From the IMG/VR virus record IMGVR_UViG_2548876936_000010: a stretch of DNA of 34,655 nt; one strand, given 5' to 3'. Below, one piece after another: positions 7,312 through 31,313 of this stretch. The stretch's first letter is position 1, and the number at the start of each line of letters is the position of its first letter. The notes under the pieces are model-generated. The model had not been told where the DNA came from, made no database searches, and was given only the letters and a program-made list of their open reading frames with translations. This stretch comes from a virus (Duplodnaviria > Heunggongvirae > Uroviricota > Caudoviricetes). The position numbers and the translations under genes are program-made.

Positions 7312-7333
7312 ATATAAAATCAGCCCCCATAAC

Positions 7334-7918
7334 TTAAAAGAGACCTTCTATATCGACTTCAATGCCCAAATAACGGACTGTGCTTTCCAGTTTCTTATGG
7401 CCCAACAGAAGTTGGATCACCCGGAGACTCTTGGTTTTCTTGTAGATTAAGTAAGGTTTTGTTCTTCTCATGGAATGTGTGCTGTACAGCGAATCTTCGA
7501 GACCAAGCTTTTCTACCCACCCATGAAAAATTCGGTTGTATTGCCGGGTTGATATATGGTGGTTAGTTCCGACCCGAGAGCGGAACAGGAAGCCTTTACT
7601 ATGCCAGTTACCGAGCTTTATCAATGCAGTAACCGCTTCCCTTGTCCCTTTGGTTATCTCAAATTGGACAGGGCTGCCGGTTTTCTGTTGCAACACCGTT
7701 GCTCTGCTTGAGACAGAACTGCCATATGCAGCATCTGATACTTTGAGTTTGACCAAATCACAGCCCCGTAGCTTAGTGTCCAAAGCCATGTTGAACAGAG
7801 CTAGATCGCGTGTTTTACCTTCCAACTCAAGTCTAATCCGGATCCCCCAGATATGAGATATCTGAAGTGGCCTTTTTTGACCGATGGTACGGTCTTTATT
7901 CCACGGTGACGTTTTCAT
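7334..7918 (-). CDS. Small stand-alone tyrosine recombinase (about 194 aa, catalytic domain only)
   Basis: ATG at 7918 preceded by AGGAGA; candidate catalytic residues present: R in KLRGCDL, K in QQKTGSPV, HSMRRT (HxxR), LLGHKKLESTVRYLG (H and Y); no N-terminal arm/core-binding domain. Confidence 0.7.
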   Translation of the reverse strand: MKTSPWNKDRTIGQKRPLQISHIWGIRIRLELEGKTRDLALFNMALDTKLRGCDLVKLKVSDAAYGSSVSSRATVLQQKTGSPVQFEITKGTREAVTALIKLGNWHSKGFLFRSRVGTNHHISTRQYNRIFHGWVEKLGLEDSLYSTHSMRRTKPYLIYKKTKSLRVIQLLLGHKKLESTVRYLGIEVDIEGLF

Positions 7919-8024
7919 ATTCAAATCTCCTGCAATGTGGGAGATTTGAGTATGGTTGTCTCTCAAGAGCGAAAATAAGTCAACTATTACTAGTTGTTGC
8001 GCATGTACGTATTCTGTCAATTAA

Positions 8025-8867
8025 TTATTGACAATCATCAATTCTGGAATGATCAAAATCATCATATCGAATTATAGTCTGGTTGACTGTATCTATTGTT
8101 GGTGTCATTTCTGTTATAATATCCTGATAACCTAAAGAGTTAAATACATTTACTAAGGCCTCACACCGAAGGGCCGTAGCAATTACAAAATTATAAATTG
8201 CCAGCCGTTTATTTTCTTGTTTAACTGCAAGAATGAATTCGATAGCAGTATTTTCATCACTTTGGATTGCATTATATAGAGATACTATATTTACCATATC
8301 ATCAGAGAATGTATGTATTGAATCACAAAGGGGAACGTAATGGGCATGATAGTGTGTTTCCCAGCCAATTAATTCAAAAAGTTTTCTGGTTCCTGGATAT
8401 TCAGGTGTATTTGGCCACAATCTATTAAATAGATCAGTTAGTTCTTTTCCCATGCGAATCCTTTCATTTGCTGCTGGATTAGTCATTCCTTTGGATTTTA
8501 AACACTCCAGCCACCGTTTTCCATTACTATGAACTAATTTCTTACTAGCCTTGAGTAATGCTTGTGCATTTTCGCCATCATCTATTGCTATATAAAATTG
8601 ATTGGCAGCCTGTTCTATTATAACCCTAGCTAATACTTCCGATGCTGAAAAGGCTCCTATATTCAAAGAAGAGATAGCCTGATTACTAAGTTCATTCAGT
8701 ACATTAAAGTACTGTAAGACCATCAATTTTTGTTCCACACCCTTTAGGTTGTCTATTTTATTTTTATGCTCCTCAAATTTTGCATGGATATATTTATTTA
8801 TCGCGGCTATTTTTTTTACATCTTCGTCAAGATCAAACGGGCAACGTCCAAACAATTCTTTTTTCAT
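8025..8867 (-). CDS. Hypothetical protein (280 aa), AT-rich cargo gene, function unknown
   Basis: ATG at 8867 preceded by AGGAGA with 6-nt spacer; ends 4 nt upstream of the recombinase gene; no motif I can recognise. Confidence 0.65.
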   Translation of the reverse strand: MKKELFGRCPFDLDEDVKKIAAINKYIHAKFEEHKNKIDNLKGVEQKLMVLQYFNVLNELSNQAISSLNIGAFSASEVLARVIIEQAANQFYIAIDDGENAQALLKASKKLVHSNGKRWLECLKSKGMTNPAANERIRMGKELTDLFNRLWPNTPEYPGTRKLFELIGWETHYHAHYVPLCDSIHTFSDDMVNIVSLYNAIQSDENTAIEFILAVKQENKRLAIYNFVIATALRCEALVNVFNSLGYQDIITEMTPTIDTVNQTIIRYDDFDHSRIDDCQ

Positions 8868-9116: not shown

Positions 9117-9211
9117 CTGTGAGTTCAACCGATGGATGCAACACACAGCGATCTACGGACATTACTAGCATAGCTGTGTATTAATCATCGGGAAGCAGGT
9201 CAGTCCGCTCC

Positions 9212-9253
9212 TAGCACAGAGCAGACTGTCAGATTAGGCTTTACTCTGTGCTA
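9212..9253. repeat. 10-bp perfect inverted repeat (tagcacagag / ctctgtgcta) enclosing the right 16-bp repeat copy (9220..9235)
   Basis: Arms at 9212..9221 and 9244..9253; 9220..9235 agcagactgtcagatt is the exact reverse complement of 6787..6802. Confidence 0.75.
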
Positions 9254-9287
9254 TAGATACGTTAGCTCACTCCAGAGATCATACAAC

Positions 9288-9815: not shown

Positions 9816-9818
9816 AAA

Positions 9819-11792
9819 TTACACCTGTGCGACGTTATACCATGTGCCATTGATGTATTTTTGTATTGGTCTGAATACTGCGGGGTCATCACCATCGACT
9901 TCACCGACAATACCAAGCCCGGTAATTACGTGCCCTGCTTTCTCATACATCACCCCTTTCTGCATGGTCTGGACAACACGTGTGCCAAGTCTGACATCTC
10001 TCACATAGCGGGAATCAAAGTTACCGTAATCCGAGGGATTAACACGCCCCGTAATATTTATGGTTTTATTACTTTGAACGCTTCCGGAGACAAAGCGCAT
10101 AACATGGACGCTATTAGCATAAACATCCAGATTACCATCACCATTTTGTTTAAAGCCCGTGTCATTATCACCCAAAACAATCGAATTACCGCCAAGAGCA
10201 CTGGATGTTCCTATACCCAGAGCACCATTCAATTGACCACCAGATAATGATAACGCCCCAACATCAGCAGCAGTCGGTTTAATGTACGAACTGTAAATTA
10301 CATATACAGTTCCATCTGTCAGGCCTGTTGGTTTATTCGCTGTATAAGTTGGTGATGTATGAATCGTTACGCTGGCGTTACTGGTATAATCCCACTGAAT
10401 ATTAACACCTGTGGCGTAATTACCTATTTCAACATAAACATCATAGGTATCACCGGATGTATTCACCCATGCAAAATTAGTAAATCCAACCGATGTCCGT
10501 CGCCATAACGCACCAGTAAGACCTTTTGGATTTCCATTTCCCGCACGAAGAACAAGTTCAGATATACCAGCCTGCATAGGGGAGTTAACATTATATCCGG
10601 CACCACCAATCAGGCTTATGTAAACCACGGAACTGGCCTGGGGCATGGTTACAGTTGCCAGCCTGAACCATCCTGTACCACCACTAAAAGACATGGTTGT
10701 TGAATTTGTTGCTCCAATATTGCGCAGGAATAATCTTTTATCAGGAATATCCGCACCGTTCTGATCTTTCTGAAGACGTTTTTCAGCATTGTCATAGGCA
10801 GACTTCACCGCTTTTGGTGTTGCGGCCAGTGTTTCAGAATCACTGTTGGTGGCGCTACTGAGCTGAACAAGCCCTTTTCGCGCTGTGGTGGCATCCTGTG
10901 CAGTGTATTTCCCGTTAGCAAGGTCATACGCGACCTTTACCGCCTTTGGCGTTGCGGCCAGCGTTTCAGAATCGCTGTTGGTGGCGCTACTGAGCTGAAC
11001 AAGACCTTTTCGCGCTGTGGTGGCGTCCTGTGCAGTGTATTTCCCGTTAGCAAGGTCATACGCGGCCTTTACCGCTTTTGGTGTTGCGGCGAGCGTTTCA
11101 GACGTGCTGTTGGTGGCACTACTGAGTTGGACAAGACCTTTTCGCGCTGTGGTGGCATCCTGCGCAGTATATTTCCCGTTAGCAAGGTCATACGCGGCCT
11201 TTACCGCTTTCGGCGTTGCAGCCAGTGTTTCAGACGCGCTGTTGGTTGCACTGCTTAACTGAGTAAAACCTTTTGCGGTCAGCGAGGCGTCCGGGTGACG
11301 TCGTGACTGTTCATGCTCTGCAATTTTGTCATCAACGTAATCCTGCGTTGCCATCACCGTTGTGGTGTCAATGGTCAGCTCCACTGAGGCCACACTGCTG
11401 ACGATGATGACCATGCGGCAGGTCTGCGAACGCCCTGAGCCTTCGGCAAGAGCGGGTTTATAACTTTCAGCCATGTTCGCCACGGCAATTAGCGTTCCCG
11501 CATCATCGTACAGGCCAAGCTCACGCATCCAGAAACCGCCCACCTCCGGCGGAATAACCAGCTCTGCGATAATATAATTACTGTTTCGTTTGTCCTGGCT
11601 GATTTTGTTCAGCGCATGTCGCCAGACTTCGCGGATAAGCCCGGTCTGTCCGGCATCCGGGACAGGCAATTTACCACCGCCATCCCCGACGGCCATCGTG
11701 GTAATGTTGACCTTCCGCCCTCCCGGTGCGGTTGCCGCTGCCAGCTTTGCTGCACCGGCAGTGGTGATAACGGTTTTGAATTTTGTGCTCAT
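9819..11792 (-). CDS. H: Tail fibre protein gpH (657 aa) with internal 44-aa tandem repeats
   Basis: 657-aa ORF; N-terminus MSTKFKTVITTAGAAKLAAATAP...; repeat KGLVQLSSATNS.SETLAATPKAVKAAYDLANGKYTAQDATTAR; Gly/Ser/Thr-rich C-terminal half. Confidence 0.9.
   Translation of the reverse strand: MSTKFKTVITTAGAAKLAAATAPGGRKVNITTMAVGDGGGKLPVPDAGQTGLIREVWRHALNKISQDKRNSNYIIAELVIPPEVGGFWMRELGLYDDAGTLIAVANMAESYKPALAEGSGRSQTCRMVIIVSSVASVELTIDTTTVMATQDYVDDKIAEHEQSRRHPDASLTAKGFTQLSSATNSASETLAATPKAVKAAYDLANGKYTAQDATTARKGLVQLSSATNSTSETLAATPKAVKAAYDLANGKYTAQDATTARKGLVQLSSATNSDSETLAATPKAVKVAYDLANGKYTAQDATTARKGLVQLSSATNSDSETLAATPKAVKSAYDNAEKRLQKDQNGADIPDKRLFLRNIGATNSTTMSFSGGTGWFRLATVTMPQASSVVYISLIGGAGYNVNSPMQAGISELVLRAGNGNPKGLTGALWRRTSVGFTNFAWVNTSGDTYDVYVEIGNYATGVNIQWDYTSNASVTIHTSPTYTANKPTGLTDGTVYVIYSSYIKPTAADVGALSLSGGQLNGALGIGTSSALGGNSIVLGDNDTGFKQNGDGNLDVYANSVHVMRFVSGSVQSNKTINITGRVNPSDYGNFDSRYVRDVRLGTRVVQTMQKGVMYEKAGHVITGLGIVGEVDGDDPAVFRPIQKYINGTWYNVAQV
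10791..11276. repeat. About 3.7 in-frame tandem copies of a 132-bp unit inside tail fibre gene H
   Basis: Unit starts ccgc(t/c)tttgg at 10807, 10939, 11071, 11203 (period 132 bp), near-identical copies. Confidence 0.85.
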
Positions 11793-14301: not shown

Positions 14302-15087
14302 ATGGTCAGCTATAATGTGACTAATGTGTGGGGGCTAATCGTTTTTTTCCTTTGTAGCTTTGCAGTATTAGCATTTTTTAGCTTTGGTAAAAGTAACCTT
14401 ATGAGGCTTATTGCACATTATTTCAATTTTGGATATTCAGACAAAAAATTAAAAAGACTTGACCGCGAGTGGCGCGACATTCAACTATTTAAAATAATTA
14501 ACGGAATCAATGTATCAGGCATTGAAAATGTGAGAATGATACAGCAGGGACTGATTGATGGAAAACTAAAAACATCGTATTTTTTCCTTACTCGCATCTG
14601 GGGTGACATAACAAAACCACCACACATAATTAAAACAATAATTGTAATTCTGGCTAGTATTTTTTACATTCTTCTCGCATGTTACATACACAACGAACAA
14701 TCCGTTATAGTAAGGGATGCCATAGGCATACCATATAAAAACATGATGTACTATGTTTATAGTGACAAAGTTCTTTTATCCTTCAAAAATAAAGCAGTTG
14801 AATTTAATAAAACTTATAGCCTTGCCGATTGCAAGAGACTGCAAAACGTATTTATAAAAGACACACTTCCTGAGATCGCCTGCAATAAGCTCTTACAGCT
14901 AAACGAGGAGGACTCCGAATGGTTAAGTCAGGAGATTAAAGATAATAACAGTCACAAAAAAGCATTATTAATACTATCCCTCGTCTATTTCACTTCAGGT
15001 CTGGTTATATTCCTGTCATATACAAAATTCTTTTACGCCAATAAGAAGGTTTTAGAATACAAAGCATCAAATAAAAATCACTCATAA
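14302..15087 (+). CDS. AT-rich membrane protein (261 aa, three predicted TM helices), opposite strand to flanking late genes; moron
   Basis: ATG at 14302 with AGGAGA 5 nt upstream; TM segments VWGLIVFFLCSFAVLAFFSF, IIKTIIVILASIFYILLACYI, ALLILSLVYFTSGLVIFLSYT; marked AT-richness. Confidence 0.65.
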   Translation: MVSYNVTNVWGLIVFFLCSFAVLAFFSFGKSNLMRLIAHYFNFGYSDKKLKRLDREWRDIQLFKIINGINVSGIENVRMIQQGLIDGKLKTSYFFLTRIWGDITKPPHIIKTIIVILASIFYILLACYIHNEQSVIVRDAIGIPYKNMMYYVYSDKVLLSFKNKAVEFNKTYSLADCKRLQNVFIKDTLPEIACNKLLQLNEEDSEWLSQEIKDNNSHKKALLILSLVYFTSGLVIFLSYTKFFYANKKVLEYKASNKNHS

Positions 15088-21359: not shown

Positions 21360-21532
21360 TGTCAGGAGTCCTGAATAGTGATTAGAGGAGTCACATGTCG
21401 GCATCAGTTTCCCGACGATGCGCATCCTCCGCCATCAGTCCCGGATGGCTTATCACTGACACAACAGCACCTTAGCGAATCGCGGGGCGCGACTCAGTAG
21501 CCTTGCCGTGTATTCATCACGGCGAGGTATTC

Positions 21533-23305
21533 ATGACCATCACCACAGACACCACTCTTTTACACGACCCGCGTCGTCAGGCGGCGCTGCTGTACTGGCA
21601 GGGATTTTCCGTGCCGCAGATTGCCGCCATGTTGCAGATGAAACGCCCGACGGTGCAGAGCTGGAAACAGCGCGACGGCTGGGACAGCGTTGCCCCCATC
21701 AGCCGTGTCGAAATGAGTCTGGAAGCGCGGCTGACCCAGCTCATCATCAAACCGCAGAAAACCGGCGGTGACTTCAAGGAAATTGACCTGCTCGGACGCC
21801 AGATTGAACGACTGGCACGGGTCAACCGTTACAGTCAGACCGGCAACGAGGCAGACCTTAATCCGAACGTCGCTAACCGCAACAAAGGCGGGCGGCGCAA
21901 ACCGAAAAAGAATTTTTTCAGTGACGAGGCCATCGAAAAGCTGGAGCAGATTTTCTTTGAGCAGTCTTTCGAATATCAGTTGCACTGGTATCGCGCCGGG
22001 CTTGAGCACCGCATCCGCGATATCCTGAAATCCCGCCAGATTGGCGCGACGTTTTATTTTTCCCGCGAGGCGCTGCTGCGCGCCCTGAAAACCGGTCATA
22101 ACCAGATTTTTCTGTCGGCCAGTAAAACGCAGGCGTATGTGTTCCGCGAATACATCATCGCCTTTGCCCGGCTGGTTGACGTTGACCTGACCGGTGACCC
22201 GATTGTCCTGGGCAATAACGGCGCAAAACTGATTTTTCTCGGCACCAACTCCAACACCGCACAGAGCCATAACGGCGACCTGTACGTCGACGAGATTTTC
22301 TGGATCCCGAATTTTCAGGTACTGCGTAAGGTGGCATCAGGTATGGCCTCACAGAGTCACCTGCGCTCGACCTATTTCTCCACCCCGTCCACACTGGCGC
22401 ACGACGCCTACCCGTTCTGGTCGGGTGAACTGTTCAACCGGGGACGCGCCAGCGCCGCCGAACGTGTGGAAATCGACGTCAGTCATAACGCCCTTGCCGG
22501 TGGTCTTCTCTGTGCGGACGGCCAGTGGCGGCAGATTGTCACCATTGAGGACGCCCTGAAAGGCGGCTGCACATTGTTCGACATTGAGCAGCTCAAACGC
22601 GAAAACAGCGCCGACGATTTTAAAAACCTGTTCATGTGTGAATTTGTTGACGACAAGGCATCGGTGTTCCCGTTCGAGGAGCTGCAACGCTGCATGGTCG
22701 ACACGCTGGAAGAATGGGAAGACTACGCGCCGTTTGCCGCAAATCCGTTCGGCTCCCGCCCGGTATGGATTGGTTACGACCCGTCACACCGTGGCGACAG
22801 CGCCGGATGCGTGGTGCTGGCACCGCCGGTGGTGGCCGGTGGCAAATTCAGAATACTTGAGCGTCACCAGTGGAAAGGCATGGACTTTGCCACCCAGGCG
22901 GAGTCCATCCGCAAACTCACCGAAAAATACAACGTCGAATACATCGGTATTGATGCCACCGGCCTCGGTGTCGGCGTGTTCCAGCTCGTGCGCTCGTTCT
23001 ATCCCGCCGCGCGCGATATCCGCTACACGCCGGAAATGAAAACCGCAATGGTGCTCAAGGCCAAAGACGTCATCCGCCGTGGCTGTCTGGAATATGACGT
23101 CAGCGCCACCGACATCACCAGCTCGTTCATGGCTATCCGCAAGACCATGACCAGCAGCGGACGCAGCGCCACCTATGAGGCCAGCCGCAGCGAGGAAGCC
23201 AGCCACGCCGACCTCGCCTGGGCAACCATGCACGCCCTGTTAAATGAGCCACTCACCGCCGGTATCAGCACTCCGCTGACATCCACCATTCTGGAGTTTT
23301 ACTGA
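21533..23305 (+). CDS. P: Terminase large (ATPase) subunit gpP (590 aa from ATG at 21533)
   Basis: ORF 21503..23305; ATG at 21533 after ggcgaggt; divergent from O; length as P2 P. Confidence 0.85.
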   Translation: MTITTDTTLLHDPRRQAALLYWQGFSVPQIAAMLQMKRPTVQSWKQRDGWDSVAPISRVEMSLEARLTQLIIKPQKTGGDFKEIDLLGRQIERLARVNRYSQTGNEADLNPNVANRNKGGRRKPKKNFFSDEAIEKLEQIFFEQSFEYQLHWYRAGLEHRIRDILKSRQIGATFYFSREALLRALKTGHNQIFLSASKTQAYVFREYIIAFARLVDVDLTGDPIVLGNNGAKLIFLGTNSNTAQSHNGDLYVDEIFWIPNFQVLRKVASGMASQSHLRSTYFSTPSTLAHDAYPFWSGELFNRGRASAAERVEIDVSHNALAGGLLCADGQWRQIVTIEDALKGGCTLFDIEQLKRENSADDFKNLFMCEFVDDKASVFPFEELQRCMVDTLEEWEDYAPFAANPFGSRPVWIGYDPSHRGDSAGCVVLAPPVVAGGKFRILERHQWKGMDFATQAESIRKLTEKYNVEYIGIDATGLGVGVFQLVRSFYPAARDIRYTPEMKTAMVLKAKDVIRRGCLEYDVSATDITSSFMAIRKTMTSSGRSATYEASRSEEASHADLAWATMHALLNEPLTAGISTPLTSTILEFY

Positions 23306-24324
23306 TGAGCAAGAAAAAAGGGAAAACACCGCGACCTGCGGCAAAAACAATCACCGCCAGCGCCCCGAAAATGGAAGCATTCACCTTTGGTGAGCCGGTG
23401 CCGGTACTCGACCGCCGTGACATTCTGGATTACGTCGAGTGCATCAGTAACGGCAGATGGTATGAGCCGCCGGTCAGCTTTACCGGTCTGGCAAAAAGCC
23501 TGCGTGCTGCCGTGCATCACAGCTCGCCGATTTACGTCAAACGCAATATTCTGGCCTCGACATTTATCCCGCATCCGTGGCTTTCCCAGCAGGATTTCAG
23601 CCGCTTTGTGCTGGATTTTCTGGTGTTCGGTAATGCGTTTCTGGAAAAGCGATACAGCACCACCGGTAAGGTCATCAGACTGGAAACCTCACCGGCAAAA
23701 TATACCCGCCGTGGCGTGGAGGAGGATGTTTACTGGTGGGTGCCGTCCTTCAACGAGCCGACACCTTTCGCGCCCGGCTCCGTGTTTCACCTGCTGGAGC
23801 CGGATATTAATCAGGAGCTGTACGGTCTGCCGGAATATCTCAGCGCCCTTAACTCTGCCTGGCTGAATGAGTCGGCCACGCTGTTCCGCCGCAAGTATTA
23901 CGAAAACGGCGCACATGCCGGATACATCATGTACGTCACCGATGCCGTGCAGGACCGCAACGATATCGAAATGCTTCGCGAAAACATGGTTAAGTCGAAA
24001 GGCCGCAACAACTTTAAAAACCTGTTTCTCTATGCCCCACAGGGGAAAGCCGACGGCATTAAAATTATCCCCCTCAGTGAAGTGGCGACGAAGGACGATT
24101 TTTTTAATATCAAAAAAGTCAGCGCCGCAGATCTCCTGGACGCACACCGCATCCCCTTTCAGTTGATGGGCGGTAAGCCGGAGAATGTCGGGTCACTAGG
24201 AGATATTGAAAAAGTGGCAAAGGTCTTTGTCCGCAATGAACTCACTCCATTACAGGAGAGAATAAAGTCAATAAATGAATGGTTAGATATGGAAGTCATA
24301 AAATTCCTTGATTATAACTTATAA
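23305..24324 (+). CDS. Q: Portal (capsid vertex) protein gpQ (339 aa)
   Basis: 339-aa ORF, start overlaps P stop; synteny P-Q. Confidence 0.85.
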   Translation: MSKKKGKTPRPAAKTITASAPKMEAFTFGEPVPVLDRRDILDYVECISNGRWYEPPVSFTGLAKSLRAAVHHSSPIYVKRNILASTFIPHPWLSQQDFSRFVLDFLVFGNAFLEKRYSTTGKVIRLETSPAKYTRRGVEEDVYWWVPSFNEPTPFAPGSVFHLLEPDINQELYGLPEYLSALNSAWLNESATLFRRKYYENGAHAGYIMYVTDAVQDRNDIEMLRENMVKSKGRNNFKNLFLYAPQGKADGIKIIPLSEVATKDDFFNIKKVSAADLLDAHRIPFQLMGGKPENVGSLGDIEKVAKVFVRNELTPLQERIKSINEWLDMEVIKFLDYNL

Positions 24325-24366: not shown

Positions 24367-25074
24367 CTATATATACTTCCTTTTTACTCTACTTAATTCT
24401 ATCACTGATGAGGAGTGACAAAATGACAAATTAATAGTATCGATATAATCCAAAATTTGACTCTCAACCTCAATAAAAATATTTTTGGGCCCATTACTAA
24501 TCGATATACCGATTTCATCCAAAACAGCCATCATTTTTCTCTGATGAGTTTTATATTTATAGTCTTTATTTTCCTCTGTAATATGTGCATTGGCTTCCTC
24601 AATAACACATTTGATTCTAGATATTATTTCTAGATAATCTCTCGAAACAGATATATCACCGCCTTGCGCTTCAGGGAACATAACCCTATACCATCTAAAA
24701 AAATTAACTTTCTCTGGATAGATGCTACTTCTTTTAGTTAACTCAGCACTTGCAAATTCTCTAAACATCGTCAGATGACTAGTGTAATTACTATTATTAT
24801 TATTTTTAACTCCAGCGTTATATGTCATCAAAGCAATCATAACACCAAAAACGGTAACAAAAGTTGTTATAAGCCATCCAAACGCCTGAAAATACATTAC
24901 TATACCAGATGTTTTTTCCGCAAAAAATTTTAAGCACTGGCTATCGAAGCATATATCACGCTCATATAGCTTTTCATTCTGAATAGTTTCAAAAAGAGAA
25001 ATTAGCGAAAAAATCAAAAAAAGAGCTGACGACACACCGACAATATATTTGAGAAGTCTAATATTTGCATTCAT
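24367..25074 (-). CDS. Two-TM membrane protein (235 aa) translationally coupled to the RT; candidate effector
   Basis: ATG at 25074 overlaps the RT stop (ATGA, 25071..25074); TM1 YIVGVSSALFLIFSLISLF, TM2 GIVMYFQAFGWLITTFVTVFGVMIALM, then about 150-aa soluble domain; AT-rich. Confidence 0.7.
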   Translation of the reverse strand: MNANIRLLKYIVGVSSALFLIFSLISLFETIQNEKLYERDICFDSQCLKFFAEKTSGIVMYFQAFGWLITTFVTVFGVMIALMTYNAGVKNNNNSNYTSHLTMFREFASAELTKRSSIYPEKVNFFRWYRVMFPEAQGGDISVSRDYLEIISRIKCVIEEANAHITEENKDYKYKTHQRKMMAVLDEIGISISNGPKNIFIEVESQILDYIDTINLSFCHSSSVIELSRVKRKYI

Positions 25075-26261
25075 AATGGTTTTAAAGATGCCAATCTAGA
25101 TTTAAAACACTCCAGTTTTTCTTTAAATGATTCAGAGCGAGTAAGAATAATCATCTTATATCTCGTCAAATCATATTTTCTTTTATACCAATGTTTATTT
25201 TGATTACCTTTCGAATACGACAACTCTAAACTTTTTATAGCTGCATCAATCACAGCAACATCTCTTTTAGATGGCATCGGTTTTATTGCCTGCAACTGTT
25301 TCTTGAATGATTCATATTTTTCATGCCCAACACGGCCAAGCTTATTCACTCTCCCCATACATCTATTGAATTCTTTTCTGTATGCAACACTTGTTTTTGT
25401 GTTATTTTTTGCCGCCAGTAATTTCAAATTATGTATAGATGCCCTGATTCTTTTGACTTCATCGGATGGTAGTCGAGGTGAGTCATAGTCAACTCTTAAA
25501 CCATGTACTTTTATAGGTTCAGATGAACAGTGAAATATTTTAGTTTTGTGCTTATTTATCGGCAAGTCATGCTCAGAAAGCATCCTCTCTATATGGCTTT
25601 GCATTTGAGAAAAATCATAATTACTTATTTTAGATGACACGGTAATATCATCTACCAAACGCGTATAAACAAGTCCTTTCCTCTGCGCACGTCTTACCAC
25701 ATCCCCTTCAACAGCGAATAAACACAAAGTTGCTATATAGCTTGATGTTAAGGCCCCCTGTACGACAAAATCATCCTTAGTACATATATCCACCAAGTAT
25801 TCAAGAGCCTCATCCTTAATATGCAATATCTCCTCAAACACGCTCCTAACCAGATCTCTATGGATATTATCGAAAAAATTACTTATATCCACCTTGAGAA
25901 CTGTTTTTGCTCCACAATGAGCCTTTGCACATGAAACATAGTCACGTTTGACATTAGAATTTAAAACATCATTTTTACTGGGAACTGAACCAAACAAAAA
26001 TGAAGGAAAAACAACCAATTCCTTAAAGATACGTTTATTAATTCTACTCTGTAATAATCTCATTTTAGGATGCAGGGAGTAGACAATCCGTTTGCTTCCG
26101 TCAATTTTGGGAATTTCTTTTAGAGTATATTTCTCATCTAATGATAATTCTGCAATAGCTTTAAGCTCTTCAACAGAAATCGATAAAGCCTTTGACAACT
26201 TTTCAAGTGTTGTGATAGGAGCATTGGATTTGCTGTATGGTTTAAATTTATCCATAAACAT
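25071..26261 (-). CDS. Reverse transcriptase, retron-like (about 397 aa; start ambiguous among ATGs at 26297, 26261, 26255)
   Basis: RT motifs in the translation: IPKIDGSKRIV, LLQSRINKRI, CAKAH...LKVDISNFFDNI, QGALTSSYIATLCL, YTRLVDDITV (YxDD-type), LPINKHKTKI, IKVHGLRV; basic C-terminal extension. Confidence 0.8.
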   Translation of the reverse strand: MFMDKFKPYSKSNAPITTLEKLSKALSISVEELKAIAELSLDEKYTLKEIPKIDGSKRIVYSLHPKMRLLQSRINKRIFKELVVFPSFLFGSVPSKNDVLNSNVKRDYVSCAKAHCGAKTVLKVDISNFFDNIHRDLVRSVFEEILHIKDEALEYLVDICTKDDFVVQGALTSSYIATLCLFAVEGDVVRRAQRKGLVYTRLVDDITVSSKISNYDFSQMQSHIERMLSEHDLPINKHKTKIFHCSSEPIKVHGLRVDYDSPRLPSDEVKRIRASIHNLKLLAAKNNTKTSVAYRKEFNRCMGRVNKLGRVGHEKYESFKKQLQAIKPMPSKRDVAVIDAAIKSLELSYSKGNQNKHWYKRKYDLTRYKMIILTRSESFKEKLECFKSRLASLKPL

Positions 26262-26512
26262 ACCATTCAAATTCAAAGTTACGTACGGTCTTCCCATACT
26301 CAAGGGTGGAACAGCAGAGATGCTTACATCAACAATTGTCAGCAACAGCCTCTGCTATCTTTCGACCGTACGTAATGTCGTCGGCTACGGCACCATCGTA
26401 GTTGACGACGGTGGGGCCTCGCTGATAGGTCCATAGTGGACGCTTTTTTGTAAAAGCAAAAACTGACAATTTAATGTTGTTGACTGCCGCATACCAAGCG
26501 AATCGCTGGTGC
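26262..26512 (-). ncRNA. Candidate structured non-coding leader of the RT (possible retron msr/msd-like RNA)
   Basis: 12-bp perfect inverted repeat ttacgtacggtc (26279..26290) / gaccgtacgtaa (26364..26375) with nested 7-bp repeat agcagag/ctctgct; adjacent hairpin 26377..26409; no ORF. Confidence 0.4.
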
Positions 26513-26519
26513 GCTAAGA

Positions 26520-26548
26520 ATAATGCAACAAAAAAATAAGAATTTCAA
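26520..26548 (-). promoter_or_regulatory. Candidate sigma70-type promoter for the RT module (-35 TTGAAA, 17-nt spacer, -10 CATTAT)
   Basis: - strand ggTTGAAAttcttatttttttgttgCATTATtc; -35 at 26548..26543, -10 at 26525..26520; between cos and the structured leader. Confidence 0.3.
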
Positions 26549-26586
26549 CCGGGTAACTGCAAGCCAGCGACATCGTTTAGCGCGCA

Positions 26587-26605
26587 GTGCTTTCCCCGCC
26601 TCGCC
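26587..26605 (-). other. cos: cos cohesive-end site (19 nt), - strand reads GGCGAGGCGGGGAAAGCAC
   Basis: + strand gtgctttccccgcctcgcc is the reverse complement of the 19-nt cohesive end I recall for P2. Confidence 0.65.
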
Positions 26606-26810
26606 CGCCCGCTACATGGGGCGGTTTTAATGCAGTTGCATGAACACGCCGGAGGCGTGCCAGCACTGGCGGCTCTCACACGTGACGAGAAAGGAAAACG
26701 CATGCGATTCAATGCAGTAATGCATGCAGGGCTAAAAATGTCAGAAAATACGGTAAAAACGCATAAAAAACCGGCATTCAGGTTACCGGTTTGAGTCAGC
26801 TTCATTGTGG

Positions 26811-26912
26811 TTACTTGTCGCGCAATGCGCCAATAATACTGGTAAGGCAACAAGTGGCAACAATCAGCAAAAAAACCGTTGTCCACGGATTCTCATAAAC
26901 GAGAGATAACAT
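26811..26912 (-). CDS. Possible small hydrophobic peptide (33 aa, MLSLVYENPWTTVFLLIVATCCLTSIIGALRDK)
   Basis: ATG at 26912 to TAA at 26813..26811, translated by hand; single TM-like segment; weak RBS; below the ORF-track size cut-off. Confidence 0.25.
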   Translation of the reverse strand: MLSLVYENPWTTVFLLIVATCCLTSIIGALRDK

Positions 26913-27312
26913 ATTGATATTGATCCTTTTATTGGTACATTATAATGCGACATTATCGGTCTTTAACAACCTGGCTGAGTTCTATCTTACCAATTTTCGT
27001 GATAAGCATTTAATCAATTACGTAGTATGGTTAAAGGCACACAAAGGAGAAAAATATGCGAATGCATTTTTTAGACAACCGACTTCCAAAAATCTTTTCA
27101 ACGTAATACAAAAAATTACAACCATCTATCAATTACAAATTAACAAATATCAACACTACCAGCTTAATTGCAGCAAAGATCAGGAGATAACATCACCACA
27201 ACAATAAATCAAAAACTGTTAGATTTGGCCAGAAATGCCAACTCCACACATAAATTCACGCAGATACATAGTTCATAATTAAACAATTTATCGACTTGGA
27301 GCGAATAGAATA

Positions 27313-28317
27313 ATGTCAAAAGAAAACACACCAATGGAACCAAGCATAAATATAAAGGCAGACTTCACTGAGATATTAAATTCATCGCCAAAGGGCGTTA
27401 AGTATATATTCAATATTCTCTTCGGAAAAAAACACGCAGAGGCCGAGAGAAGGATTAGGCTATCGAACGCTCAAGATTATGCAGATATGAAAAAGATCAT
27501 ATCTGGAGAAGCAACATATGATAATGAGAGGAACCAAATAACACCTTCTAACCAAGACATTAAGTCATTAATTGTTAGTGCATTGCAGGATGAGGAAATT
27601 AAAAATCTTATAGGCTGCATCAGAAGCGCCTCAGAATACATTAAAGATGATACTGATAACGATGGTGGTCCATCCCAAGACTTTATTAACAGATGGCGAA
27701 GCGATGCGAAACTAATCAGTGAACAGTCTATCCAGTACGTTTGGGGGCGAATTCTAGCGGAAGAAATAAACACACCTCAAACTGTAAGCGTAAGAACCCT
27801 TGATGTAATAAAAAACCTATCAAAAGAAGAGGCTGAATATTTCTCAGAGGTACTTGACTTTATATTTTACGATTCTTATTTGATTGATAATGGAGATACC
27901 AAGAATCCATTCATCTCACCAGAAAAAGGTCATAAATTGAGAGATGCAGGATTAATAGTTACTTTTACTCCTGGAATGTATTTCTCCGAGACATGGGATA
28001 CACAACATTTTGTTCTCAGTGGAGCCACCATACCAAAAGTATTCTACATCAGCAGTTCTGATAAGTATTACTTTATCGATGCAGGCAAAATAACTGACGA
28101 CCCTAAAATTCTGGTATGGAAGTTAACAAATGCTGGCAAAGAACTATATAAAATTCTAAAGAAAGATCATAAAACCAAAGAAGAATCAGTAAAAAAAATT
28201 ATTGACTGGATATTAAACAGCACTAAAGCTTCTGAGTTTTACCATGGGGATATTATTAAACATTCAGACAATAGCCTGTCAGTTGAGAACTTACTGACTA
28301 TAAGCAGAAATAGATAG
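27313..28317 (+). CDS. Hypothetical protein (334 aa), AT-rich cargo at the position P2 uses for tin/old
   Basis: ATG at 27313 with ggag upstream; no Walker A or other motif I can recognise; convergent with A; followed by a hairpin. Confidence 0.65.
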   Translation: MSKENTPMEPSINIKADFTEILNSSPKGVKYIFNILFGKKHAEAERRIRLSNAQDYADMKKIISGEATYDNERNQITPSNQDIKSLIVSALQDEEIKNLIGCIRSASEYIKDDTDNDGGPSQDFINRWRSDAKLISEQSIQYVWGRILAEEINTPQTVSVRTLDVIKNLSKEEAEYFSEVLDFIFYDSYLIDNGDTKNPFISPEKGHKLRDAGLIVTFTPGMYFSETWDTQHFVLSGATIPKVFYISSSDKYYFIDAGKITDDPKILVWKLTNAGKELYKILKKDHKTKEESVKKIIDWILNSTKASEFYHGDIIKHSDNSLSVENLLTISRNR

Positions 28318-28353
28318 AACATCAAAACAAGGCCCCATATCTAATCAGTATAC

Positions 28354-28392
28354 GAACAGGCAAGAACATCCGTTTTTGTCTGTTCCTTTCAA
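28354..28392 (+). terminator. Candidate intrinsic terminator (14-bp stem with two G-U pairs, 4-nt loop, then ctttcaaaac)
   Basis: gaacaggcaagaac (28354..28367) / gtttttgtctgttc (28372..28385), 37 nt after the stop of the 334-aa gene. Confidence 0.45.
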
Positions 28393-28762
28393 AACAACCC
28401 CCCGCATCCCCATAATACTAAAAGATGTTTTTCCTTTTATTCAAACCCACAATAATGTTTACGCTCAATAATAAAAAACATCAGAATATTTTTTGACTCC
28501 TACACAGCTTGCTTCTCAACCCCGTTGTGTATATCATCAGGACCAAGCCATTTCACACCAGTGTTATCCATCACTTGTTCAGAAATCATCGCTACTTTTA
28601 TGACAGAGTAGTGACTCTATATACTAAGAATTACGACCGCCCTTATTATCCTGACTTTCATCAATAAAGAAAATAATACCGCCAGCTTTATCTCTTGGTG
28701 AATAAGGAGGGCCAGTGCCAGTGCTAACCAGATAACTGCCTATCTGAATTAACTTGTTGTCA

Positions 28763-31048
28763 TTAGCTCCACTCCGTTTCTGTTGAATACCCCGGCCACT
28801 CATCAGCGACCGCATAACTGAATTTTTTCTCGCCATATATCACCGTTGCACCTCGCGTCAGCGCCTCAAGCTCCCATCGCTGCGGTCTGATACCGTTCTG
28901 AGCAAGGTCAACGCGGATAGGGATGATTTGCAATCGTTCAGACCTGGTCAGTCTGGCAGATGGTGCAATTTCATGCGGTTTTAACGGGCTTCCGTTTCTT
29001 TGCTGACGATTTGATGTTCTCAGGCCGTGTTTTAATGCGCCCCTGAGCGCCCTCACGACCTCCGGGTCATTCCATTCGATAACACCGTCATCAACCAGAT
29101 TAAGCACTGCTGAGGCGTGCTCAGAAGGTGTGGGAGCCGGTAACGAAATATCACCACCGGTGAGCTTTCCACAGTTATTGACAGGACTCCGAGGCGCGGC
29201 GATGCCGCTTTTTAAAGTCAAAGGCTCAACGACCGGAACTTTCGGCACAATGCGCCAGTCCGTCGTTCTGGTGATATGAATATGACGCGCGCCGAGATGC
29301 GGCGCGTAAATGCCGACCACTCTCTCGACTTCTTCCTCGTACTCGTTAACGTCATCCGACGGGCTACGGGCAACCCTGACAGTCTGACAATCGCGCGGGA
29401 CATTTGCCCCACCCTGCGCGCTGATATACAACGCAAAATCACCACTGTCTGCGGCAGCGCGAGCAGCCTCGACGCGTTCGTCAAACTCATCAGCAATACT
29501 GACGCCGCGAGGCAATTTGCGTAGTTCACGGTAAGCCCCCATTGTCGGCAGGCCAACCGTTTTAAATTGCGGAATTCGCCACGTTGACGCCCATGCGGTA
29601 ACAGCCGCAGCAGTATCTTTCAGCGGCCTGCCGGTATCATTATCGAGCTGACCATCCAGTGCATAGCCATCGATGTTTTTTGAGATGTATTTTGCGATAT
29701 ACCCCGCAGCACCGCCCCGGTTAAGATGTTTTGCCTGAAAACGGTTTCGCGCGGCTCCTCTTTCGTCGCCATCCTCTTTGAGCGCATAGCGACGCATGAT
29801 TTCGATAATCTGGTTACGCTGGCGTGGATTACAAAAAAGCATCATATGCCAGTGCGGCGTTCCGTCGTGGTGTGGCTCGACGACACGCAAACCGTAGACC
29901 TGTAAATCATTATCCTTGAATGCCGTGCGCATCAGGCTCCAGATATGGCAGAGATAACGCTGCGCATCCTTTGGATTAAATGCCTCATCGTTCCAGCCGT
30001 GATTTAGCTGGACGGTTTTACTTTCGCCTTTTCCGACCTGACGTGTCGGGTGATACTTTGACGGCGCGGTAAGCGTGATAAACATCCCCACATCACCCTC
30101 TGCGGCGGCGTAACGCTCAATACCGGCAATGGTGTTCATCAGCTCCATCCGGCGAATTTCAGGATTAGAAATACTGCCCATCACCTTACTGATAAGGTCG
30201 ATGCGTTCGCCGGTTTCCCTGTTTTCAAGGTCACACGATTTAAGAAATTCCAGATTTGCCTGGCGGCGTGCACGCACATCACGAATGGCATGTTTACTGG
30301 CATAAGGTGAACGGTCTTTATTGACCTCCCCGACAGCAATCAGTAACGCCTCATGCCAGCGCATACGCTGGCCTTTAAGCTGACTAATCCACCACTCATC
30401 GTTAAACAGGCGGGCAATGGCAGAATATGCCTGCCTCGTGGTCATCTGTCCTTTACGGTATTTTTTCCAGTAGAGCGGGGAAATATTGAAAGCACGTGCA
30501 GCGCCAGCAACATGACCATAGAGGTGAGCCTGCGCCTCATCCGTAAACAGCGATTCTTTTTCGCCATGCGCATCCACCCAGGCATCGCAGAGTTCCTCAT
30601 ACATCATGAAAAGCTGCGATGAGATACGGGCGGCAAACTTTTTCAGCTCCTTATCATTCATCCCCGGCAGACGCGCATAATGGTCACGCTCTGCCAGAAA
30701 CAGCAACGACGCGTCGGTGTTCATTTCATGGCGCTGATTCACGCGCTCAATGCGCGGCCATAAACGACGCTGAAAAGTGGATGTGAGGAAATAAAACCCG
30801 TGCACCGGGCTTTTATTGCGCCGGATGTAGTCATAGCGTGAAGTAAACAGCGAGCGCAAAAAGTAAGGCAGGCGGTTAATCGTGGATAAAACACCTTGCA
30901 CCTGACGCATCTCGTCACGTGTAAGGGGTCTTTCGCGCCCGACGGCCTCGCGTGGCGCGTTCCATGCATAAGCACCGGTAAACGCCTTACCGGTGCCTGC
31001 AGCAAATGCTGACGGAGGGACAAAACGCCCGGAGGCTTTAACGGCCAT
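28763..31048 (-). CDS. A: Rolling-circle replication initiator gpA (761 aa from ATG at 31048)
   Basis: ORF 28763..31090; contains HUH-type motif (PHWHMMLF) and tyrosine motif GYIAKYISK; internal start MAVKASGRF... Confidence 0.85.
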   Translation of the reverse strand: MAVKASGRFVPPSAFAAGTGKAFTGAYAWNAPREAVGRERPLTRDEMRQVQGVLSTINRLPYFLRSLFTSRYDYIRRNKSPVHGFYFLTSTFQRRLWPRIERVNQRHEMNTDASLLFLAERDHYARLPGMNDKELKKFAARISSQLFMMYEELCDAWVDAHGEKESLFTDEAQAHLYGHVAGAARAFNISPLYWKKYRKGQMTTRQAYSAIARLFNDEWWISQLKGQRMRWHEALLIAVGEVNKDRSPYASKHAIRDVRARRQANLEFLKSCDLENRETGERIDLISKVMGSISNPEIRRMELMNTIAGIERYAAAEGDVGMFITLTAPSKYHPTRQVGKGESKTVQLNHGWNDEAFNPKDAQRYLCHIWSLMRTAFKDNDLQVYGLRVVEPHHDGTPHWHMMLFCNPRQRNQIIEIMRRYALKEDGDERGAARNRFQAKHLNRGGAAGYIAKYISKNIDGYALDGQLDNDTGRPLKDTAAAVTAWASTWRIPQFKTVGLPTMGAYRELRKLPRGVSIADEFDERVEAARAAADSGDFALYISAQGGANVPRDCQTVRVARSPSDDVNEYEEEVERVVGIYAPHLGARHIHITRTTDWRIVPKVPVVEPLTLKSGIAAPRSPVNNCGKLTGGDISLPAPTPSEHASAVLNLVDDGVIEWNDPEVVRALRGALKHGLRTSNRQQRNGSPLKPHEIAPSARLTRSERLQIIPIRVDLAQNGIRPQRWELEALTRGATVIYGEKKFSYAVADEWPGYSTETEWS

Positions 31049-31313
31049 ATGAGCCAAAAGCCTCTGAACAACGCCTGCTGAGTTGCTCAACCTGCGCGTT
31101 TAAATCAGCAAAAGACTTTGCGCTTCCGGTCAGAATATCGTGATGCATCAGGCCGGAAACAAGCTGGCTTAATTTCGGGTAATAACCAACCACCGCCAGC
31201 CATTCCTGACCGGCGTTTTTACCGCTTTCCGCTCTCTTTTTCTCGTGGAGAATAAACTGGAAGCTGTCACTGGTAACGACATAACGTTCGCCAATTTCAA
31301 TACGAATACTCAT
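31038..31313 (-). CDS. Small early-operon protein (91 aa), P2 orf83-position
   Basis: 91-aa ORF immediately upstream of A, overlapping its start; synteny only. Confidence 0.5.
   Translation of the reverse strand: MSIRIEIGERYVVTSDSFQFILHEKKRAESGKNAGQEWLAVVGYYPKLSQLVSGLMHHDILTGSAKSFADLNAQVEQLSRRCSEAFGSYGR

What the first reader, a model, noticed from the sequence alone, without database searches (positions are those of the whole stretch)
26606..28762. tin/old position occupied by a single 334-aa unknown protein; no old-like ATPase
Between cos and the 3' end of A, where P2 carries tin and old, this phage has one AT-rich 334-aa ORF (27313..28317) convergent with A and followed by a G-U-containing 14-bp hairpin. 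I see no Walker A motif or TOPRIM-like signature, so it is not an old homologue. It could be a distinct exclusion gene; I cannot rule out that it is tin-like.
Basis: partly seen in the sequence, partly recalled or inferred. Interest (0 to 1): 0.6.

Follow-up and report, generated by a model that had tools for sequence, protein, structure and literature searches.

The report
Belisama-type abortive-infection gene in P2 prophage
Where phage P2 carries its tin and old exclusion genes, this E. coli P2-like prophage instead carries one gene of the DUF2806 family, whose tested relatives kill infected cells to stop rival phages, so it is probably a swapped-in defence gene of a known kind that has never itself been tested.

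Summary
A 334-aa AT-rich ORF (27313..28317, +) lies between cos (26587-26605) and the end of gene A (28763). It is convergent with A and followed by a 14-bp G-U-containing hairpin (28354-28385). It has no Walker A or TOPRIM signature and no similarity to P2 Tin or Old.

It is not an orphan, though. It is a full-length member of DUF2806 (PF10987), a superfamily of about 8,400 clusters. That superfamily includes Belisama, a Vibrio cholerae integron cassette shown to protect against phage with an abortive phenotype. It is also distantly related to Abi-alpha of Enterococcus prophage 6, which causes premature lysis.

The gene is under strong purifying selection (dN/dS about 0.1). In all 17 P2-like loci examined it occupies this slot as a single gene, and it also occurs in Mu-like and HP1-like prophages and on a small mobilisable plasmid. 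The slot is the published gpA-gpQ defence hotspot. This exact arrangement (retron RT + partner + DUF2806) is listed, untested, in Rousset 2022 Table S5.

No solved structure resembles the protein, and how it acts is unknown. I could not obtain the Belisama reference sequence, so direct membership is untested.

Verdict: new member of a known kind, moderate-to-low interest.

The parts
26587..26605 (-). cos, the 19-nt P2 cohesive-end sequence; left landmark of the slot
   Evidence: Exact match to GGCGAGGCGGGGAAAGCAC on the minus strand. P2 homology covers 26587-26634.
26579..26947 (.). cos-proximal backbone segment shared by many P2-like prophages whatever cargo they carry (not in P2 itself beyond 26634)
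   Evidence: About 91% identity in 2,101 of 5,426 complete E. coli genomes, with matches ending at 26947. 75-80% identity in Klebsiella and Salmonella phages. In E. coli JJ2434 it is followed by a different cargo, an RT plus HTH protein.
26914..26946 (+). Sigma-70-like promoter at the backbone/cargo junction: TTGATA (26914-19), then TACATT (26937-42) or TATAAT (26941-46). It reads toward the DUF2806 gene, the same direction as the P2 old-tin transcript.
   Evidence: Consensus scan, 9 of 12 matches with a TG extension. The element is conserved in all five diverged P2-like loci. P2 old-tin mRNA starts are annotated next to cos and read toward A. Promoter function is inferred, not shown.
26948..27312 (+). 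Long 5' leader (about 360 nt). The first ~115 nt (26948-27065) are conserved across P2-like lineages; the rest is indel-rich. GGAG Shine-Dalgarno at 27298-27301.
   Evidence: Alignments A4 and A5. No stable or covarying RNA structure: z = 0.19 and a consensus fold of -7.9 kcal/mol. No Rfam hit. The 97-aa ORF 26914..27207 is not conserved in Enterobacter loci, which have an indel there, and has no family hit above noise.
27313..28317 (+). 334-aa DUF2806-family protein (38 kDa, pI 5.5, no TM segment); candidate single-gene abortive-infection/exclusion determinant
   Evidence: dN/dS is 0.09-0.12 against four diverged copies. The exact protein is on record from E. coli as 'DUF2806 domain-containing protein'.
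27313..27507 (+). N-terminal 65 residues: the most conserved part (94% aa identity where the whole protein is 74-81%; dN/dS about 0.02) but modelled with low confidence; proposed interaction or effector segment
   Evidence: regional dN/dS. (pLDDT 33-61 over residues 1-50). It aligns to the N-terminus of mainstream DUF2806 proteins.
27673..27867 (+). DUF2806 helical core (residues 121-185): signature F.NRWR..A..IS....Q..WG.ILA.E...P...S.RTLD.IKNLSK.EA..F, with invariant E151 and R161
   Evidence: Pfam match to residues 94-183. Invariant and near-invariant columns. dN/dS 0.04-0.07.
27868..28314 (+). C-terminal beta-rich domain (residues 186-334) containing the DAGL and LT.AG.EL motifs. It folds autonomously, evolves fastest, and has no solved structural neighbour. 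Proposed specificity or sensor domain.
28354..28385 (+). 14-bp G-U-containing hairpin 37 nt after the stop codon; probable but imperfect terminator (weak U tract)
   Evidence: fold of 28310-28420: -21.3 kcal/mol, z = -5.0. Not called by the terminator scan.
28386..28753 (.). Cargo-specific spacer up to the point where P2 homology resumes (28754). No supported gene and no orf91/DUF3850 homologue.

Best explanation
The ORF is a stand-alone accessory gene (a moron) that a P2-like prophage of E. coli carries in the gpA-gpQ cos-proximal defence hotspot, in place of P2's orf91-tin-old. It encodes a full-length DUF2806-family protein, the family of the Vibrio cholerae anti-phage protein Belisama, which is distantly related to the enterococcal prophage protein Abi-alpha.

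Proposed working, with each step marked. The gene is transcribed in the lysogen from its own sigma-70 promoter at the backbone/cargo junction, toward gene A, and transcription stops at the hairpin (inferred from sequence and conservation). The soluble 38-kDa protein sits idle until a heterologous phage infects (inferred from relatives). It is then activated and causes premature lysis or death of the infected cell before progeny mature, so the rest of the lysogen population, and the prophage with it, is protected. That phenotype is shown for Belisama and Abi-alpha but not for this protein.

Within the protein, the highly constrained N-terminal 65 residues and the DUF2806 helical core are proposed to be the common executing machinery. 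The fast-evolving, autonomously folding C-terminal domain is proposed to set which phage cue is recognised (inferred from the selection pattern only). The biochemical activity is unknown: no catalytic motif, TM segment or known effector fold was detected.
For: Family membership:
- Pfam DUF2806 at 71.3 bits against a cut-off of 24.5.
- All 48 aligned relatives hit DUF2806, and 18 of 48 also weakly hit Abi_alpha.
- The profile-profile match to mainstream DUF2806 proteins covers residues 16-288: 99.9% probability, E 3.6e-37.
- The family has 8,388 cluster representatives, nearly all 290-350 aa with full-length matches.

Phenotype of relatives:
- Belisama 'has a DUF2806', is toxic when over-expressed, gives unrecoverable culture lysis at MOI 10 with no phage amplification, and occurs in 70 genera (bioRxiv 10.1101/2024.07.02.601686).
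- DefenseFinder detects a Belisama on a Desulfovibrio piger prophage (PMC12724379).
- Abi-alpha (EF2833, DUF4393) on E. faecalis prophage 6 causes premature lysis, and its authors noted similarity to PF10987 (PMC6356687).

Real, selected gene: dN/dS is 0.09-0.12.

Context:
- The gpA-gpQ interval is the published P2 defence hotspot (PMC9122126; PMC13586616).
- All 17 P2-like loci with a >=71% homologue have the gene in this slot, convergent with gpA.
- More distant homologues are lone, oppositely oriented inserts in a Mu-like prophage and an HP1/P2-like prophage, lie on viral contigs, or are the cargo of a 4.5-kb mobilisable plasmid.
- In the same hotspot it sits beside validated defence systems: a type IV retron here and PD-T4-4 in L036.

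Expression signals: a conserved promoter and a terminator hairpin.
Against: - No experiment exists on this protein or its subfamily.
- I could not obtain the Belisama reference sequence: the supplement is truncated as stored, and three profile searches and a genome scan returned no named V. cholerae member. The link to Belisama is therefore by shared family, not by direct alignment.
- PADLOC (2023) has no model that hits the protein, apart from one weak 16.6-bit hit to PDC-M35B that I take as noise. PHROGs has none.
- The window protein itself does not hit Pfam Abi_alpha at E <= 1, and it is below the cut-off for TIGR03899.
- DUF2806 is a large family and need not be uniformly defensive.
- The sensor/effector assignment rests only on relative rates of evolution.
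Confidence: 0.6

Rival explanations
1. A non-defensive accessory or regulatory protein: a winged-helix-like nucleic-acid-binding factor that the prophage uses for lysogenic conversion or to regulate host or phage genes, not to exclude other phages.
Confidence: 0.15
2. An addiction or stabilisation toxin. The protein would be a growth-inhibiting toxin kept in check by a cis element (the conserved leader) or by a neighbouring small gene, and it would serve retention of the mobile element rather than phage defence.
For: Belisama is toxic when over-expressed. The gene has a long leader with a conserved proximal part and a conserved 33-aa hydrophobic ORF lying back-to-back with it. A 61% homologue is the main cargo of a small mobilisable plasmid that also carries ccdB.
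Against: The leader has no stable or covarying structure, no tandem repeats and no Rfam hit. The 33-aa ORF belongs to a backbone segment present in about 2,100 E. coli genomes that lack this gene, and it is absent from the plasmid copy, whose upstream region is unrelated. Toxicity on over-expression is also typical of Abi proteins.
Confidence: 0.1
3. An accessory effector of the neighbouring type IV (Ec48-family) retron, so that the three genes form one system spanning cos.
For: The three genes are neighbours here and are listed together as 'RVT_1 + hypothetical + DUF2806' in Rousset 2022 Table S5.
Against: Of 17 P2-like loci with this gene, only the window and its identical copy L038 carry the retron. 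Two carry PD-T4-4 instead (L041 by identity of its source sample with L036) and the rest have nothing there. The genes are divergent and separated by cos. The retron partner WP_000993280 occurs 42 times in the stored part of that table, mostly without DUF2806. Type IV retrons are complete as RT + 2TM (PADLOC and NCBIfam models).
Confidence: 0.02
4. A diverged Tin or Old homologue.
For: Only its position: the same slot and the same orientation as P2 old-tin.
Against: BLASTP E = 0.93 against Tin and 0.51 against Old. PADLOC's Tin and Old models do not hit it, while the Tin model scores P2 Tin at 6.9e-98. It has no Walker A motif and no AAA or TOPRIM domains.
Confidence: 0.01

Closest known systems
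Belisama (single-gene anti-phage cassette of the Vibrio cholerae N16961 chromosomal integron; Darracq et al., bioRxiv 10.1101/2024.07.02.601686)
   Same: It is a single-gene system. The protein is defined by a DUF2806 domain. It is carried as cargo of a mobile genetic platform. The family is widespread in Pseudomonadota. The window protein is homologous to mainstream DUF2806 proteins over nearly its full length.
   Different: The carrier differs: a P2-like prophage hotspot with its own promoter, against a promoter-less integron cassette. The window subfamily is 334 aa with about 45 subfamily-specific C-terminal residues. No phenotype has been measured. Sequence identity to the Belisama reference is unknown, because I could not retrieve the reference.
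Abi-alpha (EF2833, DUF4393/PF14337, Enterococcus faecalis V583 prophage 6; PMC6356687)
   Same: It is a prophage-borne, single soluble protein of about 270-330 aa with no recognisable catalytic domain. Its family is related to DUF2806: the authors note similarity to PF10987, and 18 of 48 relatives of the window protein weakly hit Abi_alpha. Its phenotype is abortive infection by premature lysis.
   Different: The window protein itself does not reach Pfam Abi_alpha at E <= 1. The host is Gram-positive and the target is a Picovirinae phage. The relationship is at superfamily level only.
P2 Tin and P2 Old (the exclusion genes at this position in phage P2)
   Same: They occupy the same genomic slot between cos and gene A, have the same orientation (transcribed from the cos side toward A), and are AT-rich non-essential cargo.
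   Different: There is no sequence or domain relationship. There is one gene here instead of the old-tin operon plus orf91.
AbiZ of Lactococcus lactis (functional analogy only, as discussed in PMC6356687)
   Same: It causes premature lysis of infected cells, proposed to act on the phage holin or lysis clock. That is the phenotype class reported for Abi-alpha.
   Different: There is no sequence similarity (stated for Abi-alpha). AbiZ is thought to act at the membrane, whereas the window protein has no predicted TM segment.

Membership tests
DUF2806 (Pfam PF10987) | Score above Pfam's gathering threshold | tested here: met
   71.3 bits against a cut-off of 24.5, E = 1.4e-19, residues 94-183. All 48 aligned relatives also match.
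DUF2806 (Pfam PF10987) | Homology beyond the core motif, i.e. the same overall architecture as mainstream family members | tested here: met
   hhalign of the window subfamily against 16 mainstream DUF2806 proteins: 99.9% probability, E 3.6e-37, residues 16-288 aligned to 12-267.
Belisama defence system | Single-gene system with no obligate partner gene | tested here: met
   The gene is alone in the slot in most P2-like loci. Neighbours vary: retron, PD-T4-4 or nothing. It is also a lone insert in Mu-like and HP1-like prophages and on a plasmid.
Belisama defence system | Protein carries a DUF2806 domain | tested here: met
Belisama defence system | Significant similarity to the V. cholerae N16961 reference protein (the authors used BLASTP E < 1e-3 with >= 50% coverage) or a hit to the DefenseFinder Belisama model | not testable with these tools
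   The reference sequence and model were not available. The supplement is truncated. No named V. cholerae member appeared.
Belisama defence system | Anti-phage protection with an abortive phenotype, and toxicity on over-expression | not testable with these tools
   Experimental. Shown only for the V. cholerae protein.
Abi-alpha (Pfam PF14337, formerly DUF4393) | Match to the Abi_alpha model | tested here: not met
   No hit for the window protein at E <= 1. Among its relatives, 18 of 48 hit weakly, best E 7.8e-5. The relationship is at superfamily level only.
TIGR03899 (NCBIfam) | Score above the curated cut-off | tested here: not met
   60.5 bits against a cut-off of 155.65.
P2 Tin | Sequence or profile similarity to Tin | tested here: not met
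   BLASTP E = 0.93. The PADLOC Tin model gives no hit at E <= 0.1, while the positive control P2 Tin scores 6.9e-98.
OLD-family nucleases (P2 Old) | N-terminal ABC/AAA ATPase with a Walker A motif, plus a C-terminal TOPRIM domain | tested here: not met
   No Walker A motif. No AAA or TOPRIM Pfam hit, whereas P2 Old gives AAA_15, AAA_21 and OLD-like_TOPRIM. BLASTP E = 0.51.
Cargo of the P2 gpA-gpQ defence hotspot (Rousset 2022) | Located between the replication gene A and the portal gene Q, next to cos, in a P2-like element; variable between otherwise similar phages | tested here: met
   Map of the window. P2 and JJ2434 carry other cargo at the same place. The arrangement is listed in Table S5 of PMC9122126.

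The most novel reading that the evidence does not exclude
The P2-borne 334-aa DUF2806 subfamily could be a mechanistically new kind of single-protein abortive-infection device. A C-terminal domain of a fold with no solved relative would sense a phage cue. The ultra-conserved N-terminal segment plus DUF2806 core would execute killing by a route not yet described for any defence system, for example by direct interference with the lysis clock or membrane energetics without a TM segment or enzyme fold. Because it sits in an E. coli phage, it would make the so far uncharacterised Belisama/Abi-alpha mechanism directly testable with the coliphage toolbox.
Probability: 0.25. Interest if true: 0.55.

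Novelty: new member of a known kind. Interest (0 to 1): 0.35.

Why it matters
If the gene is defensive, it adds a Belisama-type single-gene abortive system to the list of cargoes in the P2 gpA-gpQ hotspot. It would also show the same family travelling on integron cassettes, several prophage types and small plasmids. The practical value is tractability. Neither Belisama nor Abi-alpha has a known trigger or biochemical activity, and the E. coli/P2 setting, with diverged natural alleles from Salmonella and Enterobacter for domain swaps, is a convenient place to find both. It does not change the current picture of phage-borne defence hotspots; it fills in one of the many 'unknown function' entries, which a 2026 survey puts at 19% of P2-like phages.

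Tried and rejected
1. Tin or Old homology: rejected.

2. Getting the Belisama reference sequence. The stored preprint supplement stops in Table S1. Profile searches with the subfamily alignment and with a generic DUF2806 alignment listed no V. cholerae protein.

5. A riboregulator or type III antitoxin in the 360-nt leader: no tandem repeats, no Rfam hit, no stable fold, almost no covariation.

6. The 97-aa ORF 26914..27207 as a second gene: not conserved and no family hit above noise.

7. The small ORFs in 28386-28836: no family hits, and only a 12-residue resemblance to a small gene called in one Enterobacter locus.

8. Plasmid association of this subfamily: only two distant PLSDB hits.

9. 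Functional linkage to the retron: rejected on co-occurrence.
Full report
**What is in the sequence**

The window is a P2-like prophage cut at the integrase end. Terminase and portal genes lie at 21503-24324 (+). Gene A is at 28763-31090 (-); it is 96.7% nt identical to P2 A and hits Phage_GPA at 4.6e-124. Then come B/cox/C-type genes and int at 33660+.

The 19-nt P2 cohesive-end sequence matches the minus strand at 26587-26605. GC is 0.34-0.37 there against about 0.56 in the backbone.

Thirty-seven nt after the stop codon there is a 14-bp hairpin with G-U pairs (28354-28385). The local fold is 5 standard deviations more stable than shuffles. Its U tract is weak, so the consensus terminator scan did not call it. 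There is no Walker A motif and no ATPase or TOPRIM domain.

**Edges of the insert**

Homology to P2 covers 26587-26634 and resumes at 28754, so about 2.1 kb here replaces P2's orf91-tin-old.

Part of that is still backbone. Positions 26579-26947 match, at about 91%, a cos-proximal segment present in 2,101 of 5,426 complete E. coli genomes and in Klebsiella and Salmonella P2-like phages. In E. coli JJ2434 a different cargo follows that segment, a reverse transcriptase plus an HTH protein.

The truly foreign DNA is about 26948-28753. It has no match in 50,697 phage records or in the E. coli complete genomes, even at low stringency for the downstream part.

The backbone segment contains a conserved 33-aa ORF with a hydrophobic core (26811..26912, -). 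It is identical in a Salmonella prophage and conserved in an environmental P2-like contig. It is not specific to this cargo.

**Is it Tin or Old?**

No. BLASTP gives E = 0.93 against P2 Tin and 0.51 against P2 Old. PADLOC's Tin model scores P2 Tin at 6.9e-98 but finds nothing in the window protein at E <= 0.1, and the same holds for the Old model. P2 Old shows AAA_15, AAA_21 and OLD-like_TOPRIM domains; the window protein shows none.

**What it is**

- Pfam places residues 94-183 in DUF2806 (PF10987) at 71.3 bits, against a gathering score of 24.5.
- A word-indexed search of 5.8 billion proteins found 52 clusters, all DUF2806. The best is 96% identical, from Salmonella enterica.
- The exact protein is on record from E. 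coli draft genomes (15 contigs). Near-identical variants occur in Salmonella, one of them on 247 contigs. All are annotated only as 'DUF2806 domain-containing protein'.
- An exhaustive profile search of 1.84 billion cluster representatives found 8,388 relatives at E <= 1e-3 and 1,755 at E <= 1e-30. Nearly all are 290-350 aa and match end to end.
- A profile-profile comparison of the window's subfamily with 16 mainstream DUF2806 proteins gives 99.9% probability, E 3.6e-37, over residues 16-288.

The protein is therefore a full-length family member and not merely a carrier of the core motif. Only the last ~45 residues are particular to the subfamily.

All 48 aligned relatives hit DUF2806, and 18 also weakly hit Pfam Abi_alpha (best E 7.8e-5). 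The window protein itself does not hit Abi_alpha.

**What is known about the family**

Only four papers in the held library mention DUF2806.

One is Darracq et al. (bioRxiv 10.1101/2024.07.02.601686). They tested 88 cassettes of the V. cholerae N16961 chromosomal integron and named 16 anti-phage systems. [quoted passage not shown] It is toxic at full induction and gives 'strong and unrecoverable culture lysis' at MOI 10 without phage amplification. Homologues are found in 70 genera. Belisama is now detected by DefenseFinder, for example on a Desulfovibrio piger prophage (PMC12724379).

Abi-alpha itself is EF2833, 272 aa, DUF4393, on E. faecalis V583 prophage 6. It aborts infection by phage Idefix, with lysis about 10 min early. 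Its authors noted similarity to PF10987 and found homologues mostly on prophages (PMC6356687).

So two tested relatives, one Gram-negative and one Gram-positive, both give a single-protein abortive phenotype with lysis.

I could not retrieve the Belisama reference sequence. The link is by family, not by direct alignment.

**The gene is real and selected**

Against four diverged P2-like copies (74-81% aa identity) dN/dS is 0.09-0.12. Constraint is uneven:

| Region | dN/dS | Note |
|---|---|---|
| Residues 1-65 | about 0.02 | 94% aa identity |
| DUF2806 core, 121-185 | 0.04-0.07 | |
| Residues 66-120 | 0.12-0.14 | |
| C-terminal part, 186-334 | 0.14-0.30 | fastest-evolving |

The invariant residues in the 48-sequence alignment are E151 and R161. 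They lie in the signature W..IL..E...P...S.RTLD.

The protein is soluble: the maximum 19-residue Kyte-Doolittle hydropathy average is 0.76 and the pI is 5.5.

**Structure**

AlphaFold2 with the family alignment gives pLDDT 79 and pTM 0.64. The model has:
- a low-confidence N-terminus;
- long helices;
- the helical core;
- a confident beta-rich C-terminal half.

Modelled alone, residues 186-334 reach pLDDT 93 and pTM 0.84, so this is an autonomous domain.

There is thus no structural clue to an enzymatic activity. The winged-helix resemblance is a lead, not a finding.

**Context**

The gpA-gpQ cos-proximal interval is the published defence hotspot of P2-like phages, with 1,650 gene arrangements in 18,150 loci. 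Old and tin are its occupants in P2 (PMC9122126). A 2026 survey confirms this and reports that 19% of P2-like phages have only unknown-function genes there (PMC13586616).

Table S5 of the 2022 paper lists 'NZ_AIAR01000007: RVT_1 + hypothetical + DUF2806'. That is this window's gene order. It appears once in the stored part of the table and is not among the tested systems.

I examined 17 P2-like loci from E. coli, Salmonella, Enterobacter and metagenomes that carry a >=71% homologue. In every one the gene lies between portal and gpA and is convergent with gpA.

The other side of cos varies:
- a type IV (Ec48-family) retron in the window and its identical IMG/VR copy (PADLOC RT_IV 1e-176 and 2TM_IV 4e-85; NCBIfam retron_Ec48_2TM);
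- PD-T4-4 in L036, and presumably in L041, a contig from the same sample;
- nothing in the others.

The DUF2806 gene is therefore independent of the retron.

More distant homologues occur in other mobile settings:
- a lone reverse-oriented insert among the tail genes of a Mu-like prophage in Ignatzschineria;
- an insert near the integrase end of an HP1/P2-like prophage in Halodesulfovibrio, close to a HigB toxin gene;
- a resolvase-rich variable region in Pseudomonas putida;
- nine further IMG/VR viral contigs;
- the cargo of a 4.5-kb mobilisable plasmid (61% identity).

Sequenced plasmids otherwise rarely carry this subfamily.

**Expression signals**

A sigma-70-like promoter sits exactly at the backbone/cargo junction: TTGATA at 26914-19, then TACATT or TATAAT at 26937-46. 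It is conserved in all five diverged P2-like lineages, and it reads toward A as the P2 old-tin transcript does.

The leader is about 360 nt. Its first ~115 nt are conserved about as well as the coding region, and the rest is indel-rich. I found no RNA structure, covariation, repeats or Rfam family in it. The plasmid copy has an unrelated upstream region. Why the proximal leader is conserved is unexplained.

**Most likely working**

This is a stand-alone abortive-infection/exclusion gene of the DUF2806 (Belisama/Abi-alpha) superfamily. It is expressed from the prophage in the lysogen, stays inactive until a heterologous phage infects, and then causes premature lysis or death of the infected cell.

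| Step | Basis |
|---|---|
| Family membership | shown here |
| Purifying selection | shown here |
| Single-gene status | shown here |
| Hotspot and mobile-element cargo status | shown here |
| Defensive function and lysis phenotype | inferred from two tested relatives |
| Promoter and terminator use | inferred from sequence |
| Effector (N-terminus + core) versus sensor (C-terminal domain) | inferred from relative rates of evolution only |

I put 0.6 on the defence reading. The rivals are a non-defensive winged-helix-like regulator (0.15), an addiction toxin (0.10), a retron accessory (0.02) and a Tin/Old relative (0.01). The remainder is unassigned.

**Novelty and score**

The kind is known: DUF2806 was established as a defence family in 2024, the P2 hotspot in 2022, and this arrangement is already listed in a supplementary table. 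What is new is modest. A 334-aa enterobacterial subfamily is fixed in the P2 slot, untested, and has a confidently predicted C-terminal domain without a solved structural neighbour.

I rate it 'new member of a known kind', interest 0.35. Its main value is as a tractable E. coli entry point to a defence family whose trigger and activity are unknown.

Noticed in passing
window 24367-26345 (-), and 26346-26586: A type IV (Ec48-family) retron lies between the portal gene and cos: RT at 25071..26345 (PADLOC RT_IV, 1.1e-176) and the 2TM effector at 24367..25074 (PADLOC 2TM_IV, 4e-85; NCBIfam retron_Ec48_2TM, 2e-67). Rfam found no msr/msd RNA. The ncRNA would be expected in 26346-26586, upstream of the RT. 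Positions 26350-26647 are 99% identical to Escherichia phage pro147.
   Followed up: partly
window 26811-26912 (-): Conserved 33-aa ORF MLSLVYENPWTTVFLLIVATCCLTSIIGALRDK with a hydrophobic core and no family hit. It is identical in a Salmonella prophage and 73-85% identical in other P2-like loci. It lies in the cos-proximal backbone segment shared by about 2,100 E. coli genomes. Its start codon abuts the -35 of the cargo promoter. It may be an unannotated small membrane protein of P2-like phages.
   Followed up: partly
window 26938-26947 and 26948-27065: The palindrome CATTATAATG could serve as a -10 element on both strands, giving back-to-back promoters for the 33-aa ORF and the DUF2806 gene. 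The first ~115 nt of the DUF2806 leader are conserved across diverged P2-like lineages although no RNA structure is detectable. Function unexplained.
   Followed up: partly
window 7334-8867 (-), within the low-GC island at about 6500-10500: A second AT-rich island (GC 0.34-0.45) holds a 228-aa Phage_integrase-family protein (7334..8020; Pfam 1.5e-17) and a 280-aa DUF5677 protein (8025..8867; Pfam 5e-10). Neither hits PADLOC. It may be cargo of the other P2 variable locus (Z/fun).
   Followed up: partly
window 14302-15087 (+): A 261-aa ORF in a third AT-rich patch (GC 0.35), on the opposite strand to the surrounding morphogenesis genes, with no Pfam or PADLOC hit. It is another moron candidate.
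   Followed up: partly
window 28386-28762: No homologue of P2 orf91 (DUF3850/ASCH) follows gene A. The 370-nt spacer is unique to this cassette, with no E. coli match even at low stringency. Its small ORFs (28509..28667 +, 28624..28836 -) have no family support.
   Followed up: yes
L036 257-2255 (-) (JGI 3300011229 P2-like contig): In a related prophage that carries a 77% DUF2806 homologue, the portal-to-cos side of the hotspot holds PD-T4-4 (A subunit 7e-115, B subunit 5e-12 in PADLOC). This shows independent assortment of the two halves of the hotspot around cos.
   Followed up: yes
L035 (ENA ERZ1467250, 4,559-nt contig): A 61% identical homologue is the main cargo of a small mobilisable plasmid-like contig that also carries Rep/PriCT, a relaxase, MobC/NikA and CcdB. 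Its upstream region is unrelated to the P2 leader.
   Followed up: partly
literature (PMC8221240): On IncX4 plasmids the mcr-1.1-pap2 colistin-resistance cassette is reported to sit inside, and disrupt, a DUF2806-domain gene. If DUF2806 genes are defence genes, this is a case of a resistance cassette inactivating a plasmid-borne defence gene.
   Followed up: no
window 28763-31090 (-): The mechanical ORF for gene A starts at a TTG and is 775 aa, whereas homologues are called at 761-773 aa. The true start is probably a downstream ATG.
   Followed up: no
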